From the NCBI GenBank assembly GCA_963782915.1, contig CAWALK010000013.1, forward strand, positions 1-12,697: DNA of 12,697 nucleotides, in the 5' to 3' direction. Made by a program: the position numbers and the translations under genes. This DNA comes from an uncultured archaeon (GTDB lineage: Archaea; Thermoproteota; Bathyarchaeia; Bathyarchaeales; Bathycorpusculaceae). The notes under the pieces are model-generated. The model worked only from the letters and a program-made list of their open reading frames with translations. It was not told where the DNA came from and did not search any database. Each line of letters starts with the position of its first letter. Positions within the stretch are counted from its first letter, which is position 1. Of this stretch, positions 608 through 11,170 are shown piece by piece.

Positions 608-1305
608 ATGCGCCCAAGCAAAATGCTGCTTTCTGTAATTATTCCTGTTTATAATGAGGAACAAACAGTCGGCAACATCATTGACCGCACGAAAAAAGCT
701 CTGCAGCAACAAGGCTTAGATTTTGAAATAATTGTTGTTGATGATCAGTCACATGACAGATCATTTGAAGTGGCAAAAAGACATAGCGTTAGGCTCTACT
801 CTCTGAAACAGCATTTAGGCAAAGGCTATGTTCTACGCGCTGGATTCGCACAAGCAAAAGGCGACATCATAGTCACCATTGACTCAGATGGGTCCCATCG
901 ACCGGAAGAATAGCTGAAGTTTTGGCCCCTGTTCTCCAAGACAAAGCAGATATGGTAATAGGTTCCAGATACCTAAATCATAAACAGGTTGCTGCAAGAA
1001 AACTCAATCGATTTGGTGTACGGATCTTCAATTTCCTAATTCAACTATTTACTGGAACAGCCAGCACCGATTCCCAGTCTGGCTTCCGCGCCATGAAACG
1101 GGAAGTTATCGAAAAGCAAAAGCTATACGCTCGCGAATATGAAATAGAATCGGAAATGCTAGTTAAGACGGCCAAAGCAGGCTTTAGGGTAGCTGAAGTG
1201 CCGATTAGCTTTGAGCAGCGCACATATGGCCGCTCAGGTGTTGATCCTTTATGGGATGGTTCAAAAATTTTATACTCAATTTGGCTTGCTCGTTTTAGGG
1301 GATAA
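608..1305 (+). CDS. GT2 glycosyltransferase, DPM1/dolichol-phosphate sugar synthase-like; split by a 1-nt deletion near 910
   Basis: Motifs SVIIPVYNEE, IIVVDDQSHD, GKG, VTIDSDGSHxPEE and DSQSGFRA. Adding one base at GAAGAA-TAGCT restores EE(I/L)AEVLAPV and joins ORFs 608..913 and 922..1305. Confidence 0.85.
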
Positions 1306-1308
1306 CAA

Positions 1309-2298
1309 ATGGCTGAAGACGGAACTGCGAAAGTTTCAATCGTTGTTGCATCCTACAACAGCCAAGACACAATAGAAGAATGCCTCAAATCCATTTTAGC
1401 GCAGAATTATCCAAAAGATGCCTTTGAAGTCATAGTTATGGACGGCGAAAGTAAAGATAACACGGTCAAAATCGCCCAGCAATTTCCCATTAAAGTCTTA
1501 TCTATTCGTCTGAATTGTCCAGCTGCCTACAATTATGCGATGAAAATCGTCGCCTATCCTATACTGGGATTTATCGATGCGGACGCTAAAGTTGAACCAG
1601 ATTGGCTCAAAAAAGTCACACCCCATCTAGCCGAGCCCGGAGTGGCTGGCGTTAGCGGCAGTATCGAAACTTGGAACGCTGATAATCCGTGGGCAAGAAG
1701 CATCGGTTACGAACTCAAAAGCCGCTACAGACGTATAGGCAAATATACAGGTCGTATAGCAACCATGAACTTGCTGCTCAAAAAATCAGTCATCGAGGAA
1801 GTGGGTGGATGGGACGAGAAATTGCCGAGTCAATATGATACTGATTTTGGGTTTCGTATGAGTGGCAGGGGCTACAAGATTGCTTATGAACCTACCGCTG
1901 TATGTTACCATTTTAATCGCCCGACGTTGAAGGCGTTCTATCGCCAGCAGTTGCAGTATGGCAAGAACACGCTTAAACTATACTTTAAACATGGGCACCT
2001 AGCGAAAGGTGACGAAATCACTGATGTAGGTATGAACATTCAGCCCATCTTGCTGTTGGCTGTGGTTGTATCTTTTCTTTTGGGTATCATTCCACAGATT
2101 CGATTGCTGTGGGTTGTTTCGGGTTTAATCTTGTTGTCGATTTTTGTTTACTTTGTTTACTCAGCCGTGAAGTTATCGGTCAAATTTAGTGATCGGTCTG
2201 CGATGAGGCTTGTTGTGCTCTATTATGTGCGATCGGCGGCGTGGTTTGTAGGTGCCGTTTCAACTACAATTCGATACCTGATCAGGAGGAACAGGTAA
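1309..2298 (+). CDS. GT2 glycosyltransferase with C-terminal membrane segments
   Basis: Motifs VSIVVASYN, VIVMDGESKD, FIDAD (DxD), GGWDE and a RQQLQYG QxxRW-like motif; hydrophobic C-terminus. Confidence 0.9.
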   Translation: MAEDGTAKVSIVVASYNSQDTIEECLKSILAQNYPKDAFEVIVMDGESKDNTVKIAQQFPIKVLSIRLNCPAAYNYAMKIVAYPILGFIDADAKVEPDWLKKVTPHLAEPGVAGVSGSIETWNADNPWARSIGYELKSRYRRIGKYTGRIATMNLLLKKSVIEEVGGWDEKLPSQYDTDFGFRMSGRGYKIAYEPTAVCYHFNRPTLKAFYRQQLQYGKNTLKLYFKHGHLAKGDEITDVGMNIQPILLLAVVVSFLLGIIPQIRLLWVVSGLILLSIFVYFVYSAVKLSVKFSDRSAMRLVVLYYVRSAAWFVGAVSTTIRYLIRRNR

Positions 2299-3494
2299 TG
2301 CCTCATAAAGTCTGCTTCATCTCCCCCGAGTACTGGCCGCTCTCTGGCGGAACAGGCGCATATGTATACTATCTCTCTAATGAACTGATGAAAAACGGCT
2401 ACCGAATCCAAATCGTAACCGGTTCAAACCAAACTCAGGATGTCCAAGTCAACCCAAATCTCAACGTGTCCTTTCTAAAAATTCCCAAAATGCCCATAGT
2501 CAAATCTTTCCTGCTCGCAGGCAACAGCTACAGAAAACTCCAAAGCTTCCGCACCACCGCCAATATCGACATCACCCATCCGCAGTTGCCGTTGACACCA
2601 AGTTTTGCGGTTCCACCGAGATTTGGAAAAGCCCTCGTATGCACAGTTCACTCAACATGGAAAGGCGAAGCAGAAGCCATACGCGGCGAACCCTACAGCC
2701 GCCTAAACGCCAACGAAAAATTCCTTGTGAGTTTTAACTGGTTTTTACGTTTCTTCGAAGAAGGCATGATTCATAGAGCCAGAAAAATCATCGCGGTCAG
2801 TCACTTCACAAAATGGGAACTCACCAAATACTACAAGATTCCAGCCCACAAAATCCAAGTTATCCACAACGGCGTAGACATTAAGAAGTTCCAGCCAGCC
2901 GTCGACAAAAGAAAAGTCAAGGTGGCGATGGGGCTTAACCCCGATGACTTAGCCATCGTCTCGGTCGGGCGTCTCTATGCCCGTAAAGGGCTCTTTACCC
3001 TAATCGAATCCATGCCCGATATCATCAAGAAGTTTCCAAAAGCCAAATTCATCATCAGCGGCAAAGGCCAAAGCGATGAAATGCACAAACTCAACGCCCA
3101 CGCTGAGCGCTTAGGAGTCAGAGGCAACATAGTCTTCACAGGCTACACTCCCGACCGAGAACTGCCAAAACTCTACCAAGCCGCAGACGTCTTCGCTTTC
3201 AGCACCTTCTATGAGCATCACCCGTTCGCCGTGTTGGAGGCATTGGCAACAGGCTTGCCCGTGGTCACCACCACCGTGGGGGGTATTCCCGAAACCATCG
3301 ACAGCGGCAAAAACGGCTTTCTCGTGGAACCTTTCAATCCCAAGCAGTTTAGCGAAAAAATCCTGTACCTGCTCGAGCACCCAGCGGGGGCAGCGGAAAT
3401 GGGTGCAAAAGCGCGGAAGACGGTTGTGGAGCAACTGGATTGGCGTATAGTCGTCAAAGACGCCATGAAAGTCTATGATGAAGCGCTAAGATAA
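2298..3494 (+). CDS. GT4 (GT-B fold) glycosyltransferase
   Basis: ATG 2298 overlaps the upstream stop (TAATG). Motifs EYWPLSGGTG, IIAVS, VIHNGVD, VGRLYARKG and EHHPFAVLEALATGLPVV (EX7E). Confidence 0.92.
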   Translation: MPHKVCFISPEYWPLSGGTGAYVYYLSNELMKNGYRIQIVTGSNQTQDVQVNPNLNVSFLKIPKMPIVKSFLLAGNSYRKLQSFRTTANIDITHPQLPLTPSFAVPPRFGKALVCTVHSTWKGEAEAIRGEPYSRLNANEKFLVSFNWFLRFFEEGMIHRARKIIAVSHFTKWELTKYYKIPAHKIQVIHNGVDIKKFQPAVDKRKVKVAMGLNPDDLAIVSVGRLYARKGLFTLIESMPDIIKKFPKAKFIISGKGQSDEMHKLNAHAERLGVRGNIVFTGYTPDRELPKLYQAADVFAFSTFYEHHPFAVLEALATGLPVVTTTVGGIPETIDSGKNGFLVEPFNPKQFSEKILYLLEHPAGAAEMGAKARKTVVEQLDWRIVVKDAMKVYDEALR

Positions 3495-3496
3495 TC
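3423..3496 (+). repeat. Direct repeat copy 1 (last 23 codons, stop and TC of GT4)
   Basis: 63/74 nt identical to 4209..4282 with no gaps (hand alignment). Confidence 0.9.
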
Positions 3497-3532
3497 GCCG
3501 TTTTTAGGCTCATCATCAGCAGATTCTCATCA

Positions 3533-3543
3533 ATCTTTAAAAG
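3533..3543 (+). promoter_or_regulatory. Putative TATA box of the MNT-HEPN operon
   Basis: TTTAAAAG at 3536-3543, about 29 nt before ATG 3572. Confidence 0.45.
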
Positions 3544-3571
3544 GTAACAACCCAACTTTATCTCGATACAA

Positions 3572-3865
3572 ATGCCAACGGTAGAGAAGCTAAAAGCGAT
3601 TTTGGCTTTACATAAAGAGAATTTAAAGAAGAATTATAAGGTCAAAGAAATCGGTATTTTTGGGTCTTACGTTCGACATGAGCAGAAAAAGAAAAGCGAT
3701 CTAGACGTTTTGGTTACCTTCTCTGAAACAATTGACCTCTTCACGTTTGTTGAGCTTGAAAACTATTTGAGCGATATTTTAGGGGTTAAAGTTGACCTTG
3801 TTATGAAAGATGGGATTAAACCTCGCCTCAAAGAGAGGATTTTAAGCGAGGCTGTTTACGTTTGA
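3572..3865 (+). CDS. mntA: Minimal nucleotidyltransferase (MNT) antitoxin, type VII TA
   Basis: 97 aa with GIFGSYVRHEQKKKSDLDVLV (GSx10DxD) and KVDLV; overlaps the downstream HEPN gene. Confidence 0.92.
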   Translation: MPTVEKLKAILALHKENLKKNYKVKEIGIFGSYVRHEQKKKSDLDVLVTFSETIDLFTFVELENYLSDILGVKVDLVMKDGIKPRLKERILSEAVYV

Positions 3866-4203
3866 GAGACTTTCAAGTCTACCTTGAAGACATAATTGAC
3901 GCATTAAACAGCATAGAAGCATACACTAAAGGGCTCACCTATGAGGCGTTCGTTAACGATAGAAAAACCGTTGATGCAGTAATAAGAAACTTTGAGATTA
4001 TCGGTGAAGCAGCCAAACAAGTTCCCCTTTCAATTCGACGAGAGTACTCCAAAGTGCCTTGGAGGGATATGGCTGGAATGCGCGACAAGCTAATACATGG
4101 CTATTTTGGGATTCAGTTAGATGTTGTTTGGAAAACTATCAAAGAGCGTTTGCCGCCACTTCGGCTTTTACTGCTTGACGCTTTAGCAGATATGAAGAAA
4201 TAA
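3862..4203 (+). CDS. hepT: HEPN (DUF86) ribonuclease toxin, type VII TA
   Basis: 113 aa with DAVIRNFEIIGEA and PWRDMAGMRDKLIHGY (RX4HXY); 4-nt overlap with MNT. Confidence 0.92.
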   Translation: MRDFQVYLEDIIDALNSIEAYTKGLTYEAFVNDRKTVDAVIRNFEIIGEAAKQVPLSIRREYSKVPWRDMAGMRDKLIHGYFGIQLDVVWKTIKERLPPLRLLLLDALADMKK

Positions 4204-4208
4204 GATCC

Positions 4209-4282
4209 GTTGAGCAGCAGCTGGATTGGCGTATTGTAGTCAAAGAAGCCATGAAAGTTTACGATAAAGCGCTAGAATAATC
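4209..4282 (+). repeat. Direct repeat copy 2: orphan GT4 C-terminal fragment VEQQLDWRIVVKEAMKVYDKALE*
   Basis: Matches the GT4 C-terminus VVEQLDWRIVVKDAMKVYDEALR* at 18/23 aa and 63/74 nt; begins 5 nt after the HEPN stop. Confidence 0.9.
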
Positions 4283-4383
4283 CTAAGTGCCTATCTGGCA
4301 GACCAGACACTGGTAAACTTGACAAAAGCATTGTAATAATGTTTAAGGGCATTCTTCCTGCTAGGGTATCTGGCTGGTTGGGT

Positions 4384-4963
4384 TTGAGGGGTAAGTTATG
4401 GTCAATCGAGCAAGAGCGGCAACTGCGAAAGCTCGTCGCAGAGGGAGTTGGTATTGCCGAGATTTCTAGGGTTATGGGTAAGACGCGTGTTTCTGTGAGG
4501 TCTAAAATGTACCATTTAGGTTTGTCTGTAGTTGATGCAGCAGCTGTTTCCCCGACCATTGCTGTATCAGTTGCATCAATTGCATCAGTTGCATCAACTC
4601 CTGAACCCATTATCGACCATGCACCCCTTGATGATGCCCCCTCGCAGGTTCCAATTATAGACCATCAACCCGCTGCTGATCTCTGCCTCTGTGCCTTGTC
4701 CTAGTGAGGTTGACGCCTTTGCGGCTCAACTCAAGGAGAATGCACCTTTGCCTACCATTGAGGAGCAGCTTCATGTTTTGAACGCTGCGATAGTAGAATT
4801 GCGCAGGCCAGGTATTAGCCGGGCTGAAGTTGCAAGGAACTCAAAGATTATTGAGGGCGTAAAAGTCTACAATGACCTGTTCGCTAAATTTGTCGATTAC
4901 CGAGGGCTCGAAACTAAAGTCTTGGAGTTAGAAAAACGGCTTGCGAGCGAAAAAAACCCGTAA
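4384..4963 (+). CDS. HTH (GcrA-N/Myb-like) plus helical/coiled-coil protein, candidate small terminase subunit; one frameshift between 4661 and 4701
   Basis: Likely TTG start at 4384 (MRGKLWSIEQERQLRKLVAEGVGIAEISRVMGKTRVSVRSKMYHLGL), then a low-complexity linker. It continues in ORF 4691..4963 (LPTIEEQLHVLNAAIVEL...DYRGLETKVLELEKRL) and overlaps the terminase start by 23 nt. Joining the two ORFs is inference. Confidence 0.6.
4561..4665 (+). repeat. Intragenic repeats: three 9-bp units (RTTGCATCA) and a PIIDH motif repeated at 45-bp spacing
   Basis: GTTGCATCA-ATTGCATCA-GTTGCATCA at 4570-4596; CCCATTATCGACCAT (4606-4620) versus CCAATTATAGACCAT (4651-4665). Confidence 0.75.
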
Positions 4964-6401
4964 TGTGCAGAGTCGTCGGAGATTCAACGCCAAAGAAATC
5001 CAAGCACACTGGCAAAACCTGGACGAAGCATACAGAATTCGCCAGCAAGCCACACACGCAAGAGTCGAAGCAGTTAAGGGTGACACGGCAGCGTTCTTCC
5101 AGCAAATCTGCCGCCTCAAAGCCTTCAGCTACCAGTTGGAACTCGCAAAGTTGTACCGTGAAAACCAGTTTTTGGCGGTTAGGTGGCCAAGGCAGACAGG
5201 CAAGAGCACATCGATTGGAGCATTGCTGCTGCAGGATGCCTACGAGAACAACGACTTAAGCATTGCATTCATTGGTCCGAGCTGGCGCCAAACCAAGCTT
5301 AACCTCCGACGTGTAGCGGGATTTTGCCGCAATCTGCCCCAAGGAACCTGCCATGTGCAGAAAACCAGAATTAGCTTTGAAAACGGCTCGTTCATCGAAG
5401 CCTTCCCCAACAACCCCGACACCACCCGAGGCAACACATTCCATCGTGTCTGGTGGGACGAAGTCAACTTCACCCAAGGCGACGACGACCTATACGACGC
5501 CCTCCTATACACCCTGGGAACCACAAACGGCAAACTCGTAGCCAGCAGCACCCCATTTAACACTGACTCACTGTTTTGGAGAATGTGCAACCACAAAAGA
5601 TTCGCAAACTATGCAAAACACCACTTTTCCTACGAGGCCGCACTTGAACCAAACGGTCCATTGAATGCGCAGATGATTGAGCGGATCAAGGAACAGTTTG
5701 GGGATGACCCAAGCCGTTGGCGTCGGGAGATGGAGGCTGAGTGGGCTGAAGATGAGGATGTGTGGCTTGCTCAGAGCTTGATTGTTTCGTGTATTGGCAC
5801 TAAAAAGAACTGCGGACAAGACCTCGAAGAATACGACACGGAGAAGAGTTGCAGCGGCGAGTTTTTCTTGGGCTTAGACATCGGTCAAGTAAGAGACTAC
5901 ACATCGCTAAGCATCGTAGAACTGGTCGACGATACGATTTATTTGAGGCATCAAAAGCTTTTTCCGCATCCAACCACTCACGCACATGTCTTAGGCTACA
6001 TTAAGCGTCTGCAGGATCTGTGGGGCGGCTTCCAGAAGATCCGCGTCGACTTCACCCGAGAAGGTCCAAGCCTCATCAAGGATATGGAAAACGCAGGCAT
6101 AGAAAACGCTGAAGGCGTCAACTTTAGTGTCCCTCGCAAAAGCGAAATGGCAAGCCTACTAAAACAACGCATGCAAAACCAACAATTCCGCTTTCCACTG
6201 CTCACTTGGGAGAAGCCTTACCGAAGCGACATCTGCAGTGAACTTAACGTTGAGAAATATCAACTGCGCAAGGATGGCAACATAGGATACAGCCACCCAA
6301 ACGGCACCCACGACGACGTCTTCTGGAGCATAGCATTAGCCGTATACGCAACAACCGACATGGCACCTGAACCCTTCTTAACAGTAGTTCCCCGAAGCTA
6401 A
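4941..6401 (+). CDS. terL: Terminase large subunit (ATPase plus RNase H-like nuclease; Terminase_6-type)
   Basis: Adenine-binding YQ, Walker A WPRQTGKST, Walker B VWWDEV, coupling motif SSTP, nuclease LGLDIGQVRD, RVDFT and HDDVFWSIALA; uninterrupted 486 aa. Confidence 0.9.
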   Translation: MRAKKTRNVQSRRRFNAKEIQAHWQNLDEAYRIRQQATHARVEAVKGDTAAFFQQICRLKAFSYQLELAKLYRENQFLAVRWPRQTGKSTSIGALLLQDAYENNDLSIAFIGPSWRQTKLNLRRVAGFCRNLPQGTCHVQKTRISFENGSFIEAFPNNPDTTRGNTFHRVWWDEVNFTQGDDDLYDALLYTLGTTNGKLVASSTPFNTDSLFWRMCNHKRFANYAKHHFSYEAALEPNGPLNAQMIERIKEQFGDDPSRWRREMEAEWAEDEDVWLAQSLIVSCIGTKKNCGQDLEEYDTEKSCSGEFFLGLDIGQVRDYTSLSIVELVDDTIYLRHQKLFPHPTTHAHVLGYIKRLQDLWGGFQKIRVDFTREGPSLIKDMENAGIENAEGVNFSVPRKSEMASLLKQRMQNQQFRFPLLTWEKPYRSDICSELNVEKYQLRKDGNIGYSHPNGTHDDVFWSIALAVYATTDMAPEPFLTVVPRS

Positions 6402-6404
6402 GAT

Positions 6405-6450
6405 CAAGTCAGGGTTAATTACTTGAGTTAGTGGGGCTCGCTGGGATTTG
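6405..6450 (+). repeat. Degenerate direct repeat copy A (tRNA 3' end plus trailer)
   Basis: CAAGTCAGGGTTAA-N12-GTGGGGCTCGCTGGGATTTG resembles 8754..8796. Confidence 0.45.
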
Positions 6451-6533
6451 AACCCAGGATCGCATACGCCTCAGGCATGTATTCTGAACCATCCTAGAGA
6501 ACGTATAGCCCTAGCCAGATTAGTCTACTACCG
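6432..6533 (-). tRNA. Degenerate/pseudo tRNA, Pro-like body with GAG anticodon
   Basis: Minus strand: anticodon arm CATGC-CTGAGGC-GTATG, 5-nt variable loop CGATC, perfect T arm CTGGG-TTCAAAT-CCCAG, 3' acceptor CGAGCCCC-A. The 5' acceptor strand and D arm are imperfect, so the 5' boundary is uncertain (6511 or about 6534). Confidence 0.6.
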
Positions 6534-6545
6534 ATAATTTTTTCT

Positions 6546-7480
6546 TCAATCTTTAAAGTAAATGATTCTTAATTTCAACAATTCCAAAAGATAGATCTGA
6601 GCGCTGTCAATTATGCTCTCGCTCAATGCTTGCAGACTTATAGTATAATCCCTTTGGTGCGCTATTGGATTCAGCTTCTCATAGGAATCTCTAATATTTT
6701 TGCTCAGTTCGTCTATTGGTCTTAAAACATCATCGGTTAAGGATTCATTTGACCCTAAGAGTACATATTTTGCTCTTTGACGTTGAGTTGGTTTGCCATT
6801 TTCCAATTCTGGCTTGAACCATTTTGTGGAGGTCACTTTGTCATCAGGTGCCAATGTAACTAATATATCGGAAATAAGTTCCCTTGCAGAGTTAGCGGCC
6901 TGTGAGAATCTATCCTCATTTGCAGTGTCATTGAGTGTGTACCAAGCACCCTCAAGTTTAGTTACCAATCCGCCATTAATATTTTTCAGCATTGGACTAA
7001 GTTGATTTTTTCTGTCATTGGGTGTGGGTTCATTCATTTTATTTATTGTATAAGAAACAGGTTCAGTATCAATCATTGACTTTGTCAAATAAACTGCTGA
7101 TGATGTCATTGTCGTTAATACTGCAGTTGATGTTGACACTGTACCAGCAAAGACATAGCTTTCATTCTTTACTTTCTCAGAAGTATAGAGAACATTTTTG
7201 GCTGATTCTTTTTCAGAAACACTGAGACTATACATTCCAGCAAGTGAGCCCCCTGTTGCGTTATTAATTGGAAGATAAGCATCCGATTTGAAAACATCCC
7301 TAATCTGGCACAAGCGGGTTAGGTCATGTGTCCTACAGATTTGTTAATATCAGTTTTTGCTTGACTTGTATTTTTAAGGGCTTCTTCCTTTAATGTGATA
7401 GCTTCGTCTATGTTTTCAATAATGGGCTTTTTCTTCTTTGCCCACTCTTTCTTATCCTTCTCTTTGTTTTCTTCAGTCAT
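6546..7480 (-). CDS. Protein with a C-terminal predicted pPIWI-associating nuclease-like (pP_pnuc_1, HEPN-like) domain; frameshift between 7319 and 7343
   Basis: The C-terminus EGAWYTL...DRFSQAANSARELISDILVTLAPDDKV...GKPTQRQRAKY...LNPIAH matches my recollection of this family. A 53-aa ORF at 7480..7319 (MTEENKEKDKKEWAKKKK...) overlaps the open frame of ORF 7313..6546 and follows a TATA box. Confidence 0.6.
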
Positions 7481-7502
7481 AATGATTCAGCAATATGGTG
7501 TT

Positions 7503-7519
7503 TAGATATAAATAATCTA
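7503..7519 (-). promoter_or_regulatory. TATA box embedded in a short inverted repeat
   Basis: Minus-strand TTTATAT about 27 nt before ATG 7480; TAGAT-N7-ATCTA dyad at 7503-7519. Confidence 0.4.
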
Positions 7520-7763
7520 GCCAGAATCGAAACTTAACAAGTTACAACATAATTTGTTGTCTACTCTCTTTTCTTGTAGAGTTGCAAGGAACATAACTCA
7601 GGTAGCGTACTGCTATAATCAAAGAATTATGGACTAAAACGTAGGTCGTATAGTAACTTTCTCTCTAACATAAATCTTTTAAGGAAATAAAACACACTTT
7701 GGCGTTATAGAGAAGGGTGTTTCAGAAAGTAGACTTAGCTATATCAAAAAGGATTAATTCATT

Positions 7764-8730
7764 ATGTCAAGCATAGAGAATCTAATCATAGAATTAGAGG
7801 ATGACTACAAACAGACAAACACCCAATTGAAAAGACTTCTTCAAGTTATACGAACCGCAACGATAGACACAAATACTAGAAGACGAACTAAAGATGGCTC
7901 TAAGAAGGGTTATAGGGTTTCAGCATAAAGTTGAAGAAGACTATGATTTTGTTGAGAAAATAGCTGAAAAGACCAAGTATGCAAAAAGAATAGAGAAGCA
8001 TTCACAAGCAATACTAACTAAGCTTACTAGTGAAACGGGAATTGGCAAAGCTAACGTGCCTCCTGGTTATGACTTTCTAAAACCTCCAATTCAAATAGAT
8101 ACATTTGGAGTGGTTCCAACGCTGAAGGGTGCTTCAAAAGTATTGTCTGGAGCAGGGACATGGGAAAATTTCACGATAGTTTGTCAAGTTGCTTGGGAGG
8201 TTTTCAAATCACTTGAAGTAAACTTGATTGAGTTTGAGGAAGAGATGCGACATATTGGAGTTCTAACTATCTTTCCGATAGAGAAGAAAAACGCTATTAA
8301 GACTAAGTTGTCGTCAAATGGATTCGGAGAAGTAGTTGTTAGTTTTGAACAAGCTGAATCGAGTCTAATAGATGGAATCAATAATGAAGGAAATCGCAAG
8401 AATTGTATTAGTAGGTCAAGAGATGCAATTGAATGTCTTGTAGCAACTCTTCGAGAGAAGGTAACTGGAGAGAATACTGTTAGGTCATTTCACAAAGATA
8501 ACTCAAGGCTCATGGATACTGGATTCTATACTAATCACACAATGCAACTTGTTCAAGGAGTCTATGCTTTTTGTAGCACCGATAAAGGAAGCCACAAATT
8601 TAGACCTGCAGAAATAACAGTTGCTGATGCTGAAGAAGTAATGCAAGAGACCTACTCACTAACTGAGATACTTCTCCGACTCTATATATCATGGGACAAG
8701 AATAAGCAAACAAAAGAAAAGAGTCAATGA
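7764..8730 (+). CDS. Hypothetical helical protein with a C-terminal HEPN-like (Abi_C/AbiJ-like) domain; frameshift near 7870
   Basis: ATG 7764 (MSSIENLIIELEDDYKQ...) joins ORF 7894..8730 if one A is removed at ACAAATACTA. The C-terminus NCISRSRDAIECLV...VQGVYAFCSTDKGSH...ITVADAEEVM has a HEPN-like layout, but no canonical Rx4-6H arginine. Confidence 0.5.
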
Positions 8731-8753
8731 GTAAAAAAGAGAAATGCGGTACA

Positions 8754-8796
8754 CAAATCAGGGTCAAGGTGTTTGTGGTGAGGCTGCTGGGATTAG
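8754..8796 (+). repeat. Degenerate direct repeat copy B
   Basis: CAAATCAGGGTCAA-N10-GTGAGGCTGCTGGGATTAG: 12/14 and 17/20 matches to the two blocks of 6405..6450; abuts the DUF362 stop codon. Confidence 0.45.
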
Positions 8797-9753
8797 TTAC
8801 CCAATTTCGACAGGCGTACCTCGATAAGCCATTGTAAGTTTTTGAAATAACTTTACTATGTCTAGAGAGCAGAAAAGCGCCTTTGTTAGATATTCATGCT
8901 GGTAAATCATAATCTGTGCCTTCACAGGCAAATCGATTCTGGGCGGTTCAAATCTGCGTGCAACCTCCGACACCTGTAAACCATCGACTTGGACGTCTTC
9001 CTCGCGCATGCCAGCATTGTTGGCGATATAGCCCAGGTATGTTTTTTTCCAATCTATCATCATCACTTTTGCGGCGACTATGTCCACCGCTAAAGCGTCG
9101 TCACCGGTAAGCATCAAATCCATCTTGACGGGCTTGCCTTTGGTGGGTCCATTGCCCTCGATGCCGATTCGTGCATCCATTATGGTTAGCTGCGGCCTGA
9201 AAAGCGAGTAGAGTCGGTACATGACTTCAGGCAGGTAGGGGTGAAGATAGATGCGTTTGTTGCTGGGTACGCAGCCGAAGAGGTTTTTGATGGCGCCGCT
9301 GTAAGCCATAAACTCGTGAGTCTTCATCAACGGCAAATCCACCACCGCATCGGCGTCCAGCACAGTTTTTGGTAGAAACAGCCGTTTGAGAGGGCAGCCG
9401 TCTGGGAATTTGACTTCAACGACTTTGTCTTCTGAGAGGTTGATGGCTTTGCCGTCTGCGGATTCCACGGCTTTTTGCATGCCTGTTTTGTCAAACGCGG
9501 TCCAGCAGGGATAGTTAAAGCCGTTGGATTCGCCAACGACAACTTCGCTGTTGCCGTCCCTTAATAGCCCGACGAGTTGATGCATAACCTCTGGGCTTGT
9601 TACCACGCCTGGCAAGTATTCGGGGTGGCTCAAGTTTGGCTTTATGAAAATCTTTCTCTTGCCACGTAACCCTGAGTCGGCGATGGCTTGGGCGACGATG
9701 CTGCTTACGTCGTCTCCTGCACGGTAAATCGTAACTTTATGTGGATTAGGCAT
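8797..9753 (-). CDS. DUF362 domain-containing protein
   Basis: Motifs IFIKPNL, GVVTSPEV, VVVGES, LPLMKTH, SGAIKNLFGC, IMDAxxGIEGNGP and DALAVD. Confidence 0.88.
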   Translation of the reverse strand: MPNPHKVTIYRAGDDVSSIVAQAIADSGLRGKRKIFIKPNLSHPEYLPGVVTSPEVMHQLVGLLRDGNSEVVVGESNGFNYPCWTAFDKTGMQKAVESADGKAINLSEDKVVEVKFPDGCPLKRLFLPKTVLDADAVVDLPLMKTHEFMAYSGAIKNLFGCVPSNKRIYLHPYLPEVMYRLYSLFRPQLTIMDARIGIEGNGPTKGKPVKMDLMLTGDDALAVDIVAAKVMMIDWKKTYLGYIANNAGMREEDVQVDGLQVSEVARRFEPPRIDLPVKAQIMIYQHEYLTKALFCSLDIVKLFQKLTMAYRGTPVEIG

Positions 9754-11170
9754 GTTTTGACTTCACTCCTTGGAGGCATCCCGGGTCGCCGTTTAACATG
9801 TCTCCACTATGGTATGCTGCGGAACGTGCTCGACAGCCGCCGCAGATAAATTTGTAGGTGCATTTGCCGCAGGTACCCTTAAGGTTTGCTCGGTTGCGGA
9901 AGGATTTGAACAACGACGCGTTTAGCCAGATGTCCTGGAACCTTTCTGTCTTCAAGTTCCCGACGTTCACGGGCAAAAATACACACGGGTGGACATCGCC
10001 CTGTGGTGAGATTGAGCAGTAGAGTCTTCCTGCGCCGCATCCGCCGATGAATTCACCAAGGGGAACGGCTTTTTTTGTGACTTTGACGGTTTGCATGTGA
10101 GCCATTGACATGGTGACTTCGTCTGTTCCCGCTGGACCCTGACATTGCAAGGCGACGCGAGCTAATTGGGGAGCCGTGGCTAGGATGGTTGTTTTGCAAC
10201 CCGCTGACATCCTATTCAGCAAATAACGCATAACGTCCTCGCGTTCCTGCGGGGAGAGGTCTTGGTCGAAGTGGGCTTTGCCGCGTCCAGTCGGGATAAA
10301 ATTGAAGTAGGTGAAGCGTTCTGCATGGATTTTCTCGGCTAAATCGATGATGGCGGGCAGCTCAGCCATATTGTTTTTGCCCACGGTGGTGGCGATGCAG
10401 ACACAAAGATCCGCTTCAACGCAGTTTTTGAGTCCTGCAATAGCTTTATCAAAGGTGCCTAGAACCCCGCGGAAGTCATCGTGGGTTTTAGCACAGGCGC
10501 CGTCGATGCTTACGTCGATGTAGTTGACTTTGGCTTCTTTGATTTTAGCTACGTTTTCTTTGGTGAGGAGCGTGCCGTTGGAAGCCAACGAAACATAGAG
10601 TCCGCGGTCGGAGGCATATCGCGCAACTTGAAAGAAGTCTTTGCGCGTGAGAGGTTCTCCTCCCGAAAAAGCCAGAGCCGTCACGTGTGCATCGGCCAAT
10701 TGATCGACAACCGCCAAAGCCTGCTTAGTAGACAACTCCTCTTCCATCACAGCGCCGCTGTTACTGTAGCAGTGTTTGCACTGTAAGTTGCATTTGTGAG
10801 TGAAATCCCAAACCACCAGAAACGGCGCAGTCAGCGAAATGGGTTTTTTGATGCCAAAATAATCAAATGATTGAACCAAATTTATAACCGCTGCTCGTGC
10901 ATATCGGTCAGTTAAGAGTTTCTCGGCTTTCTCACGCTTGAATCCGAGGCCTTTTCGGAGGAACTCTATCCAAAAACCGATAATCTGAGAGTACAAACCA
11001 CTGCATTTGTCGCATTTGCGGTCAATTTTGCCGCCGTAATCATCCAAAGCTGCTTCAAGGACTGTTCTGCCACATTTGCCGCATTTTTTTAGCGAGAGTT
11101 GGAGCATCTTCTTAGTCATGGGCAGGGATATGACTGCGTTCCAAAATGTATCATGGCTAAGGATGCTCAT
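9746..11170 (-). CDS. Radical SAM protein with SPASM domain and an N-terminal Cys-rich extension
   Basis: CNLQCKHC (CxxxCxxC), FSGGEP, SPASM CGAGRLYCSISPQGDVHPC...CGKCTYKFICGGCRAR; N-terminal CGKC...CDKC; 8-nt overlap with DUF362. Confidence 0.93.
   Translation of the reverse strand: MSILSHDTFWNAVISLPMTKKMLQLSLKKCGKCGRTVLEAALDDYGGKIDRKCDKCSGLYSQIIGFWIEFLRKGLGFKREKAEKLLTDRYARAAVINLVQSFDYFGIKKPISLTAPFLVVWDFTHKCNLQCKHCYSNSGAVMEEELSTKQALAVVDQLADAHVTALAFSGGEPLTRKDFFQVARYASDRGLYVSLASNGTLLTKENVAKIKEAKVNYIDVSIDGACAKTHDDFRGVLGTFDKAIAGLKNCVEADLCVCIATTVGKNNMAELPAIIDLAEKIHAERFTYFNFIPTGRGKAHFDQDLSPQEREDVMRYLLNRMSAGCKTTILATAPQLARVALQCQGPAGTDEVTMSMAHMQTVKVTKKAVPLGEFIGGCGAGRLYCSISPQGDVHPCVFLPVNVGNLKTERFQDIWLNASLFKSFRNRANLKGTCGKCTYKFICGGCRARSAAYHSGDMLNGDPGCLQGVKSKHA

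What the first reader, a model, noticed from the sequence alone, without database searches (positions are those of the whole stretch)
4384..6401. Stand-alone, intact terminase module (HTH gene + TerL) with no portal, capsid or integrase
Seen: an uninterrupted 486-aa TerL with all ATPase and nuclease motifs, overlapped by an upstream HTH/coiled-coil gene in the usual TerS position. The stop is followed within about 30 nt by a tRNA-like sequence, not a portal gene, and non-viral genes occupy at least 4 kb on both sides. Known: in tailed viruses and GTAs, TerL is normally adjacent to portal and head genes. Inference: this is not a simple decayed provirus. It could be a minimal satellite-like element that hijacks helper-virus heads, a domesticated DNA cutting/translocating motor, or an antiviral packaging-interference module. 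This is the best candidate for an undescribed system here.
Basis: partly seen in the sequence, partly recalled or inferred. Interest (0 to 1): 0.82.

Follow-up and report, generated by a model that had tools for sequence, protein, structure and literature searches.

The report
Host-kept stand-alone viral terminase gene pair
An archaeal chromosome carries only the two DNA-packaging genes of a tailed virus, with no capsid genes, and related species have kept this same pair intact under strong selection, so it is a working resident module and not viral debris.

Summary
TerL (4941-6401) is intact, with ATPase and nuclease motifs. A degenerate tRNA-Pro-like sequence starts 30 nt after its stop. No portal, capsid or integrase lies on the contig, which is the whole window. 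One correction: the upstream TerS-like gene is frameshifted here (4384-4704 and 4691-4963). It is a single ORF in three of the four orthologues.

The pair sits at the same chromosomal site in four other species of the genus. All five TerL genes are 486 aa, and pairwise dN/dS is 0.04-0.09, like the housekeeping flanks. Four further genomes have the empty site.

Of 40 further TerL loci sampled in the genus, 23 are intact stand-alone TerS-TerL pairs among core genes and 13 lie in proviruses. Stand-alone copies form two clades without viral members (24 and 8 rows). Several sites are syntenic across species, with dN/dS 0.05-0.12. The closest viral relatives (71% identity) lie in complete 35-44 kb viruses.

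I read it as a virus-derived packaging module kept by selection. It probably acts on capsids of related viruses, by in-situ packaging and/or interference. That mechanism is inferred, not shown. My literature searches found no description of such a module.

The parts
4209..4282 (+). Second copy of the last 74 nt of the glycosyltransferase gene (first copy 3423-3496). It marks the left edge: the module begins right after it.
   Evidence: Direct repeat D1, 85% identity. In G161 and G197 the single glycosyltransferase 3' end abuts the module directly.
4283..4383 (+). Upstream leader of the module. It is shared by the five orthologous loci but diverges faster than the genes.
   Evidence: 3-18 differences per 99-100 nt between pairs.
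4384..4704 (+). TerS-like gene, N-terminal part: HTH domain plus an expanded low-complexity linker. The frame ends at 4704 in this copy.
   Evidence: Pfam GcrA 2.2e-5, below cut-off. Three-helix HTH in the model of the G161 orthologue, pLDDT 86-91. Aligns to viral TerS-position proteins.
4679..4700 (+). Indel hot spot in the linker. This copy has +1 nt relative to the in-frame orthologues, which splits the TerS-like gene.
   Evidence: Five-way alignment: G152, G161 and G197 are in frame and differ by multiples of 3 nt. The window (+1) and G189 (-1) are independently out of frame.
4691..4963 (+). TerS-like gene, C-terminal helical part, in another frame. It overlaps the TerL start. Synonymous divergence is unusually low.
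   Evidence: Aligns to the C-terminal half of viral and stand-alone TerS-like proteins. dS is 0-0.053 against 0.086-0.19 in TerL.
4941..6401 (+). TerL, large terminase subunit (ATPase plus RNase H-like nuclease), intact at 486 aa.
   Evidence: Orthologues at 98-99% aa identity occur in four other genomes. dN/dS 0.043-0.092.
6431..6455 (-). 3' fragment of a tRNA-Pro-like sequence (acceptor 3' strand plus T arm). It is the shared right boundary of the module in all five orthologous loci.
   Evidence: Similarity among the five loci ends at window 6453-6457. The T-arm motif lies 39-41 nt after the TerL stop in all five.
6431..6510 (-). Full-length but degenerate tRNA-Pro-like sequence (pseudo-tRNA, anticodon GAG).
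6511..8791 (.). AT-rich variable block specific to this copy. It holds an Argonaute-associated-nuclease-like gene (6546-7313, minus strand) and an unknown 278-aa ORF (7894-8730, plus strand). It occupies the variable side downstream of TerL.
   Evidence: GC 0.367. pP_pnuc_1 5.2e-25 and PADLOC Aga_Nuclease 1.9e-21. Absent from G161 and G197; replaced by about 19 kb with a type I R-M system in G152.

Best explanation
The window holds one member of a class of host-resident TerS-TerL gene pairs that derive from tailed archaeal viruses. The taxon label Bathyarchaeia comes from earlier scan notes and I did not test it.

Shown:
- The pair descends from the terminase of a family of 35-44 kb tailed viruses.
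- It now sits alone between chromosomal genes.
- It has been inherited at the same site by at least five species, and TerL is under purifying selection as strong as on the neighbouring housekeeping genes.
- Many other such pairs exist in the genus. They form clades without viral members and occupy core-gene neighbourhoods.

Inferred mechanism:
1. The HTH/helical TerS-like protein recognises DNA at or near its own locus.
2. It recruits TerL, whose ATPase and nuclease motifs are all kept.
3. When a related virus infects or is induced and supplies procapsids, the resident terminase cuts and pumps chromosomal DNA from its own locus into those capsids. This would be in-situ headful packaging, as in lateral transduction.
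4. That would spread the module and the variable, defence-rich island downstream of TerL. At the same time it would take capsids away from the virus.

In this particular copy the TerS-like gene is frameshifted. Either the copy works with two polypeptides, or it has begun to lose the TerS function.
For: Origin:
- 152 of 157 candidate IMG/VR stretches encode relatives, the best at 71% identity.
- Viral synteny is conserved: tail genes, TerS-like, TerL, then an ABC-ATPase-like gene. The TerS-like cluster occurs in 73 of 80 loci.
- Five complete or near-complete viral records each carry exactly one TerL, of this type.

Stand-alone at a conserved site:
- G152, G161, G189 and G197 carry the module at the same site at 95-96% nt identity, with the same left and right boundaries.
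- G162, G151, G016 and G168 have the empty site, with a 3-31 nt gap. In G000:C12 the same two flanks lie 73 nt apart, with the MNT-HepT cassette present but no terminase module.

Selection:
- All five TerL genes are 486 aa with no indel. dN/dS is 0.043-0.092 in 10 of 10 pairs, departing from neutrality at p 1e-10 to 2e-24.
- Flanking genes give 0.06-0.10.
- Other syntenic groups agree: group IV TerL 0.048-0.072 and TerS 0.11-0.21; group VI 0.077; group III 0.05-0.12.

Generality:
- Of 40 further genus loci, 23 are intact stand-alone pairs and 13 are in provirus context.
- Their flanks are core genes: UbiD, AcnX and GHMP kinase; PriS, GINS and exosortase-like; HMG-CoA reductase; transporters.

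Clades:
- The tree of 141 TerL rows shows a 24-row clade and an 8-row clade with no viral-context member. Five state changes suffice.
- A second IMG/VR scan with the C12 TerL found nothing above 64% identity in 79 loci.

Enzyme kept:
- Catalytic columns are conserved in 36 of 36 stand-alone TerL. TerS is a single adjacent ORF in 31 of 36.

Polarity:
- In syntenic groups I, II, III, IV and VI the upstream flank is constant and the region just downstream of TerL varies.
- That region holds defence genes in the window and in G152.

Hint of expression (weak):
- Contigs from three metatranscriptome libraries of three studies cover TerS/TerL at 90-99% likeness.
Against: - No packaging, pac site or helper has been shown.
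- The TerS-like gene is frameshifted in this copy and, independently, in G189.
- Decayed stand-alone copies exist: C11, C22 and C20 in this genome, plus L133, L163 and L204. Retention is therefore not universal.
- In G000 the two provirus regions with head and tail genes (C11, C18) give hits split over frames, so they look decayed. No intact helper is evident there, and contig C13 may come from another population anyway.
- The RNA evidence comes from contigs in RNA libraries, where carried-over DNA cannot be excluded.
- The lack of viral members in the stand-alone clades could reflect sampling: IMG/VR was reached only through pattern-seeded scans, and the cellular loci were hand-picked from hit lists.
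- dS above 1 in group III makes those ratios rough.
Confidence: 0.45

Rival explanations
1. Pure anti-viral packaging interference. The resident terminase is kept as a defence. It cuts incoming viral concatemers at the wrong time, or competes with the viral terminase for portal docking. This lowers virus yield, and any transfer of host DNA is an unselected by-product.
For: The group I locus is a defence-type hot spot. It holds MNT-HepT (PADLOC PDC-S09), an Aga-nuclease-like gene, and a type I R-M system in G152. PIN-domain genes lie downstream of the group IV module. Several diverged pairs per genome (for example three in G185 and three in G164) would suit a repertoire against different virus lineages. 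Catalytic residues are kept.
Against: TerS and TerL have no PADLOC match. Most other stand-alone pairs sit among housekeeping genes, not in defence islands. This reading overlaps with the best explanation rather than excluding it.
Confidence: 0.2
2. Trans-acting part of a dispersed, host-controlled virus-derived system (GTA-like). The head and tail genes lie elsewhere in the genome, and the stand-alone terminase serves them.
For: G000 has head and tail gene clusters at C11:135.8-146.6 kb and C18:16-30 kb. The C11 cluster has no TerS-TerL at the canonical c6/c3 junction. An HK97-type capsid Pfam match lies at C18:15862-16584.
Against: Those clusters give hits split across frames, so they look decayed. 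Proviruses whose c3 gene has no adjacent TerL of this type (G153, G167, G202 and the own genome's C18 region) show a distant second type of TerL (27-38% identity) some 16-20 kb away, so they are not terminase-less in general. Complete viruses of this family carry their own TerL. I did not test whether structural clusters are conserved across the species that share the module.
Confidence: 0.12
3. Neutral remnant. The pair is the last piece of an integrated provirus that happened to survive, and it is now decaying.
For: The TerS-like gene is frameshifted here and in G189. A tRNA-derived att-like scar lies next to TerL. Decayed copies occur elsewhere. The tRNA-Pro(GGG) gene of the genome has a decayed integrase beside it.
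Against: TerL shows 25-52 synonymous against 6-14 non-synonymous differences per pair, no indel in 1,458 nt across five species, and p below 1e-10 against neutrality. The same holds in other syntenic groups at dS 0.45-0.8. Stand-alone copies form their own clades. In bacterial prophages, terminase genes are preferentially lost from incomplete prophages (PMC7744054, passages read).
Confidence: 0.06
4. A mobile two-gene element in its own right, or a cellular DNA-processing enzyme unrelated to capsids. TerL's RNase H-fold nuclease with the HTH protein would move the cassette or process chromosomal DNA.
For: One clade (S2) occupies three different chromosomal sites and the other (S1) more than ten. 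Two copies with 95% identical flanks occur in one genome, G164. A tRNA T-arm-like motif lies 39-65 nt after the TerL stop in members of both clades at different sites: the window group, L166, L196 and L199.
Against: No shared terminal repeats or target duplications were found between sites. Only 8 of the 31 stand-alone loci whose downstream flanks were scanned show the tRNA-like motif there; a ninth locus, L188, has it upstream of TerS. No strand-transfer activity is known to me for terminases (recalled). The full packaging-type ATPase motifs are kept.
Confidence: 0.1

Closest known systems
Terminase (TerS + TerL) of tailed archaeal and bacterial viruses (Caudoviricetes; Pfam Terminase_6N/6C type)
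   Same: Same protein family, gene order and overlap. The closest viral copies (71% identity) sit in complete 35-44 kb viruses with tail and capsid genes.
   Different: Here no virion, replication or integration gene accompanies the pair. It is chromosomal, syntenic across species and selected in that state.
Lateral transduction from integrated prophages (in-situ pac-type packaging; Staphylococcus aureus work recalled, papers on the topic seen only as listings)
   Same: The proposed mechanism is the same. TerS-TerL start headful packaging on the chromosome from a resident pac site and move downstream DNA in one direction.
   Different: Known cases are complete, inducible prophages that make their own capsids. 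Here only the terminase is present and capsids would have to come from another virus. Nothing has been shown experimentally.
Phage satellites that redirect packaging: PICI, PICMI and PLE (abstracts and reference list seen; details recalled)
   Same: They are chromosomal residents that carry a small-terminase-type gene, exploit helper capsids, and thereby interfere with the helper.
   Different: Those satellites have an integrase and a replication and regulation module, excise, and as far as I recall rely on the helper's TerL. This module has TerL, and no integrase or replicon is found.
Gene transfer agents and other domesticated defective prophages (recalled)
   Same: They are virus-derived genes kept by the host under purifying selection and inherited vertically.
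   Different: GTAs keep the head-tail cluster. Here only the packaging enzyme is kept. In bacterial cryptic prophages, terminase genes are among those preferentially lost (PMC7744054, passages).

Membership tests
Large terminase subunit (TerL, Terminase_6N/6C) | N-terminal packaging ATPase with Walker A, Walker B and C-motif | tested here: met
   Pfam Terminase_6N 4.9e-12, over cut-off. Walker A Gly and Lys, the Arg at position 116, the Walker B Glu and the last two C-motif residues are invariant in all 36 stand-alone and 105 viral-context rows; the other ATPase columns vary only conservatively (Walker A S/T, Walker B D/E, first C-motif residue S/T/A).
Large terminase subunit (TerL, Terminase_6N/6C) | C-terminal RNase H-like nuclease with catalytic Asp residues | tested here: met
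   Terminase_6C alone is just under its cut-off (21.5 against 22.6 bits). However, phrog_2 spans residues 13-470 at 4e-31, and D313, D370, D458 and D459 are invariant.
Large terminase subunit (TerL, Terminase_6N/6C) | Packages DNA into procapsids through a portal | not testable with these tools
   No portal gene was identified. Pfam PF04860 finds none in the genome.
Small terminase subunit (TerS) | Gene directly upstream of, or overlapping, terL in viral genomes | tested here: met
   The homologous cluster lies just upstream of TerL in 73 of 80 IMG/VR loci and in 31 of 36 stand-alone loci.
Small terminase subunit (TerS) | N-terminal HTH DNA-binding domain plus helical oligomerisation region | tested here: inconclusive
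   The model has a three-helix N-terminal domain and long C-terminal helices at pLDDT 85-94, with a disordered linker. Pfam GcrA is below its cut-off. Oligomeric state was not tested.
Small terminase subunit (TerS) | Fold similarity to solved TerS structures | tested here: not met
   Foldseek against the PDB gives 0 matches at E <= 0.001. The top hit is the GcrA DNA-binding domain (E 0.43), and no terminase appears among the listed hits.
Integrated provirus of a tailed virus | Capsid, portal and tail genes next to the terminase | tested here: not met
   None on the contig. The flanks are chromosomal genes that are syntenic in genomes with the empty site.
Integrated provirus of a tailed virus | Integrase and a pair of att repeats | tested here: not met
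   No integrase on C13. A tRNA-derived fragment lies on the TerL side only.
Phage satellite (PICI, PICMI, P4-like, PLE) | Own integrase and replication/regulation module, with excision on helper infection | tested here: not met
   No such genes appear in or beside the module in the window or in the other stand-alone loci examined. Excision cannot be tested with these tools.
Known anti-phage defence systems (PADLOC-DB 2.0) | Match to a catalogued defence protein | tested here: not met
   TerL and the intact TerS orthologue have no match at E <= 0.01. Only the neighbours match (Aga_Nuclease, PDC-S09).
tRNA gene (for 6431-6510, minus strand) | Cloverleaf reaching Rfam's gathering score, with a paired acceptor stem | tested here: not met
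   25.7 bits against 29. ARAGORN finds none. Read by eye from the sequences printed, the acceptor stem has two mismatches and the anticodon is GAG in a tRNA-Pro-like body.

The most novel reading that the evidence does not exclude
TerS-TerL pairs are a new class of minimal 'packaging-only' genetic element. They have no integrase, replicon or capsid genes. They persist in archaeal chromosomes and spread by starting headful packaging in situ into capsids of passing viruses. They re-enter genomes by recombination, and so create and mobilise the variable defence islands found downstream of TerL.
Probability: 0.3. Interest if true: 0.9.

Novelty: new variant of a known kind. Interest (0 to 1): 0.8.

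Why it matters
Terminase genes are used as hallmarks of viruses, and in bacteria they are among the first genes lost from decaying prophages. Here the reverse holds. In one archaeal genus, most sampled TerL genes are stand-alone pairs that are inherited with core genes and are under strong selection.

If they package DNA into borrowed capsids, they would be:
- a new route of gene transfer,
- a new form of virus interference in archaea, and
- the smallest satellite-like element known.

In practical terms, many 'viral hallmark' hits in archaeal genomes would not mark proviruses at all.

Tried and rejected
- **Co-folding TerL with the C-terminal half of the TerS orthologue.** No verdict (score 0.00), so it says nothing either way.
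- **Fold search of the TerS model against the PDB.** No significant match.
- **Shared terminal repeats or common non-coding ends between stand-alone sites.** Only orthologous flanks and the tRNA T-arm-like motif matched.
- **'Terminase-less provirus served in trans'.** A search with the ABC-ATPase-like gene c3 found several copies without an adjacent TerL of this type. Three of them (G153, G167, G202), like the own genome's C18 provirus region, have a distant second type of TerL 16-20 kb away. Complete viruses have exactly one TerL. I dropped the idea as a general explanation.
- **Decayed c3 remnant after the C12 TerL.** One weak hit within 6 kb could not be located among the ORFs. Not pursued.
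- **tRNA calls in the orthologous loci.** ARAGORN and Rfam found none. Rfam on five stand-alone loci found only one distant tRNA.
- **Checking the TerS frameshift with reads.** No public run holds the window's exact sequence (best share of words 0.47). The laid contigs gave no row at 4679-4700, so the frameshift is neither confirmed nor refuted.
- **RNA contigs on the flanks.** None lay on 4100-4360 or 6536-6700. This is not evidence of silence.
- **RNA pieces at 6439-6498.** They run on into unlike sequence and belong to real tRNA-Pro genes elsewhere.
- **Portal Pfam PF04860.** No match in the genome.
- **Earlier scan notes by words.** Nothing found.
- **Locus L184.** It was left out of the tree because my ORF caller gave 376 aa, although one search reports an open 495-aa frame.
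Full report
**1. What is in the window**

The window is the whole 12,697-bp contig C13 of a 25-contig, 3.28-Mb assembly. Earlier notes of this scan call the organism a soil Bathyarchaeia. I did not test the taxon.

Genes from left to right:
- glycosyltransferase genes (608-3494);
- an MNT-HepT toxin-antitoxin pair (3572-4203);
- the finding itself (4384-6401);
- a tRNA-like sequence (6431-6510, minus strand);
- an AT-rich block with a pP_pnuc_1 / Aga-nuclease-like gene (6546-7313, minus strand) and an unknown ORF (7894-8730);
- DUF362 (8797-9753, minus strand) and a radical-SAM/SPASM gene (9746-11170, minus strand);
- repeat-rich ORFs of unknown family.

*TerL.* The gene is real and intact.
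- Terminase_6N scores 4.9e-12. Terminase_6C is just under its cut-off. phrog_2 scores 4e-31 over residues 13-470.
- All catalytic columns are present.

*The TerS-like gene.* The upstream gene is not one ORF here.
- The HTH part (4384-4704) and the helical C-terminal part (4691-4963) are in different frames.
- The break lies in an expanded, repeat-containing linker (9-nt repeats at 4563-4597).

*The tRNA-like sequence.*
- It is a degenerate copy of tRNA-Pro(GGG): 88% identity over 68 nt to C23:176634-176712.
- Its anticodon reads GAG and its acceptor stem is mismatched.
- It falls below Rfam's gathering score and ARAGORN does not call it.

**2. Viral relatives**

- A scan of IMG/VR confirmed relatives in 152 of 157 candidate stretches. 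The 80 best were kept, at up to 71% identity.
- Their gene order is conserved: capsid-region genes, tail tube (Phage_tube_2), tail proteins, two or three small genes, the TerS-like gene (73 of 80 loci), TerL, then an ABC-ATPase-like gene in 58 of 80 loci.
- So even in the viruses TerL is not followed by a portal gene.
- Five long records (four rated 97-100% complete, one with terminal repeats) each hold exactly one Terminase_6N match, of this type.
- Nucleotide similarity between the window and these viruses is confined to 5073-6391, inside TerL.

**3. The same pair at the same site in other species**

The flanks of the module are chromosomal.
- Four same-genus genomes (G162, G151, G016, G168) have the glycosyltransferase stop and the DUF362 stop only 3-31 nt apart.
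- In the paralogous or homologous locus G000:C12 the same two flanks lie 73 nt apart, with MNT-HepT present and no terminase module.

Four other same-genus genomes (G152, G161, G189, G197) carry the module at this site.
- TerL is 98-99% identical in protein, and the module is 95-96% identical in DNA.
- The left edge is the same: directly after the glycosyltransferase 3' end, except that G152 has an extra 1.5 kb there.
- The right edge is the same: inside the T arm of the tRNA-like fragment, at window 6453-6457.

To the right of that edge every genome differs.
- G161 and G197 have about 0.4 kb.
- The window has 2.3 kb of AT-rich DNA.
- G152 has about 19 kb that includes hsdR, hsdS and hsdM.

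**4. Selection**

*TerL in the window's group.*
- All five TerL genes are 486 codons with no indel.
- Nei-Gojobori counts give 25-52 synonymous and 6-14 non-synonymous differences per pair.
- dN/dS is 0.043-0.092 in 10 of 10 pairs. The departure from the neutral expectation has binomial p of 1e-10 to 2e-24.
- Flanking genes between the window and G161 give 0.061-0.099.
- TerL dS (0.086-0.19) is in the range of the less diverged flanks: 0.05-0.10 for a 232-aa glycosyltransferase among G152, G161 and G197, and 0.17-0.28 for the 329-aa glycosyltransferase within one allele group.
- That 329-aa glycosyltransferase also shows a second, very divergent allele group with dS above 1, so the flanks are mosaic.

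*The TerS-like gene in the window's group.*
- The HTH part has dN/dS 0-0.32 on few changes.
- The C-terminal part has few changes and strikingly low dS (0-0.053).
- The gene is one ORF in G152, G161 and G197. These copies differ from each other by multiples of 3 nt in the linker.
- It is independently out of frame in the window (+1) and in G189 (-1).

**5. A widespread class**

*How common TerL is.* TerL relatives occur in 80 of 151 sampled genomes of the family and 49 of 61 of the genus (both counts include G000), often with several per genome.

*Sampling.* I fetched 20 loci from the family list and 40 from the genus list. I picked them by hand from the top full-length hits that had flanks available. 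They are neither all hits nor a random sample.

*How loci were classed.* A locus counted as provirus context if it had at least two virus-cluster genes within 6 kb.

| Class | Family set (n = 20) | Genus set (n = 40) |
|---|---|---|
| Provirus context | 14 | 13 |
| Intact stand-alone | 4 | 23 |
| One weak extra hit | 0 | 2 |
| Stand-alone with split or broken TerL | 1 | 1 (L204) |
| Fragment | 1 | 0 |
| Unclear | 0 | 1 (L184) |

*Syntenic groups.* Stand-alone pairs fall into groups that are syntenic across species.
- Group II: G151 (TerL broken by one TGA), G160, G171.
- Group III: between a UbiD-family gene with an AcnX gene on one side and a GHMP-kinase gene on the other. Members are G000:C12, G163, G185, G170 and G181.
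- Group IV: beside exosortase-like, GINS and primase PriS genes. Members are G198, G158, G203 and G185.
- Group V: with a divergent 147-aa gene.
- Group VI: G195, G155.
- Pfam confirms the cellular nature of these flanks and of three singleton sites.

*Selection in these groups.*
- Group IV: TerL 0.048-0.072 at dS 0.45-0.78, with flanks at dS 0.7-1.0. TerS is 0.11-0.21.
- Group VI: TerL 0.077.
- Group II: TerL 0.087.
- Group III: TerL 0.05-0.12. Here dS is saturated, as in the UbiD flank, so these ratios are rough.

*Enzyme and partner kept.* Catalytic columns are kept in 36 of 36 stand-alone TerL. A single-ORF TerS-like gene adjoins 31 of 36.

**6. Phylogeny**

A FastTree tree of 141 TerL rows was built: 78 IMG/VR, 27 cellular provirus-context, 32 stand-alone and 4 'partial'.
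- The stand-alone copies fall mainly into two clades.
- The first has 24 rows (21 stand-alone, 3 partial, no viral member; support 100). It includes groups III-VI and two loci from other genera.
- The second has 8 rows (the five window-group copies, group II and L166; support 99). It is sister to a small viral clade.
- Two further stand-alone copies sit singly inside viral clades, and two are very divergent.
- Five state changes suffice on the tree.
- A second IMG/VR scan seeded with the C12 TerL returned 79 loci, none above 64% identity. Members of the 24-row clade are 65-79% identical to the C12 copy.

Caveats: the tree has SH-like support only, the viral scans are pattern-seeded, and the cellular loci were hand-picked.

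**7. Polarity and the tRNA-like end**

- In groups I, II, III, IV and VI the gene upstream of TerS is constant, while the DNA just after TerL varies between orthologous loci.
- A T-arm-like motif lies 39-65 nt after the TerL stop in the five window-group loci.
- The same motif occurs in L166, where it belongs to a real tRNA-Gly(UCC) on the opposite strand.
- It also occurs in L196 and L199 of the other clade. L196 continues as a tRNA-Pro-like sequence much like the window's.
- In total, 8 of the 31 stand-alone loci scanned have the motif downstream of TerL.
- The genome's true tRNA-Pro(GGG) has a decayed integrase fragment beside it.
- I read the TerL-side edge as an old tRNA-type attachment scar that still serves as an insertion hot spot. 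This is inference.

**8. Expression**

- No run holds the exact sequence. The best DNA runs hold 0.35-0.47 of its words.
- Contigs from three metatranscriptome libraries of three studies cover the module at 90-99% likeness. X15 covers 24 of 30 bins, X17 covers 13 and X16 covers 7.
- These are contigs from RNA libraries in which DNA can persist, so this is only a hint.

**9. Interpretation**

*What the data exclude.* A lone, neutrally decaying remnant is excluded.

*What the data show.* This is a virus-derived terminase pair maintained by selection in the chromosome, and one of many.

*What I infer.* Both enzyme activities and the DNA-binding partner are conserved. The only known use of such an enzyme is to cut DNA and pump it into procapsids. 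So the most economical mechanism is action on capsids supplied by related viruses. That could be in-situ packaging of the locus and its downstream island, interference with the virus, or both.

*Alternatives scored as rivals.* A purely defensive role, a GTA-like split system, and a self-mobile cassette remain possible.

*This copy.* With its frameshifted TerS-like gene it may be partly disabled.

**10. Literature**

- Five full-text searches brought up no description of stand-alone terminase pairs in archaea.
- The same is true of the passages I read in 10.1101/2023.08.24.554615, 10.1101/2025.02.15.638363, PMC13573593 and PMC11705971.
- Those surveys select proviruses by capsid genes or completeness, which would filter such loci out.
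- PMC7744054 (passages) reports that terminase genes are preferentially lost from incomplete bacterial prophages.
- Supplementary tables were not available to me.
- Statements about lateral transduction, PICI, PICMI, PLE, GTAs and the archaeal mevalonate pathway rest on recall and on abstracts or listings only.

Noticed in passing
window 3423-4282: The MNT-HepT cassette (3572-4203) is bracketed by two 74-nt copies of the glycosyltransferase gene's 3' end (3423-3496 and 4209-4282, 85% identical). The cassette is present in the window, G152, G189 and G000:C12. It is absent from G161, G197 and the four empty-site genomes. It therefore looks like a small insertion that carries or duplicates the gene end and can be lost by repeat recombination.
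   Followed up: partly
whole window (contig C13) versus G000:C12:118653-125288: C13 1-4196 and 8855-11237 match C12 at 73-75% nt identity with the same gene order. DUF362 is single-copy in the other genomes with a match (19 of 20 searched), but G000 has two copies, and the C13 copy is 94-95% identical to those of G152 and G161. C13 may therefore come from a second, co-binned population rather than from a duplication.
   Followed up: partly
window 4703-4960: Synonymous divergence in the C-terminal part of the TerS-like gene, up to the TerL start, is 0-0.053. It is 0.086-0.19 in TerL among the same five genomes. This could mark a DNA-level element such as a pac site or the TerL translation start. 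Counts are small (0-3 synonymous changes per pair).
   Followed up: no
window 6546-8730: A pP_pnuc_1 / Aga_Nuclease-like gene (Argonaute-associated nuclease family) lies here without any Argonaute gene on the contig. Next to it is an unknown 278-aa ORF. Both sit in a block with GC 0.37.
   Followed up: partly
L160 10593-19901 and L154 1-11760 (G152): In G152 the variable side after TerL holds about 19 kb. It includes a type I restriction-modification system (hsdR, hsdS, hsdM), a metallo-beta-lactamase-fold gene and several ORFs without a Pfam match.
   Followed up: partly
G000:C23:176160-176712: The genome's real tRNA-Pro(GGG) gene has a Phage_integrase fragment with two in-frame stops about 230 nt upstream. 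This is a likely old integration site.
   Followed up: no
G000:C19:100993-101448: A lone TerS-like gene (43-50% identical to viral ones) with no TerL match on that contig.
   Followed up: no
G000:C11:130962-146639 and C18:8036-30223: Two provirus regions of the same virus family. In C11 the head-tail block has no TerS-TerL between the small genes and the ABC-ATPase-like gene. A decayed stand-alone-type TerS-TerL lies upstream in the opposite orientation. C18 uses a distant second type of TerL placed before the head genes.
   Followed up: partly
L262 (G000:C12:226500-235500), L180, L195, L199, L181: Several stand-alone pairs sit inside or beside isoprenoid-pathway genes: AcnX, a UbiD-family gene and a GHMP kinase, and HMG-CoA reductase in L181.
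   Followed up: partly
window 9452-9539 (+), also L154 12420-12507: An 88-nt hairpin inside the DUF362 gene, antisense to it, gives a weak chance-level match to the mir-135 model (26-28 bits against a gathering score of 59). It is conserved in the G152 orthologue. Most likely it is just a coding-region palindrome.
   Followed up: no
L197 and L201 (G164:C2 and G164:C6): Two copies of a stand-alone pair in one genome, with 95% identical flanks of at least 380 nt on both sides. This points to a recent segmental duplication or an assembly of two strains.
   Followed up: no
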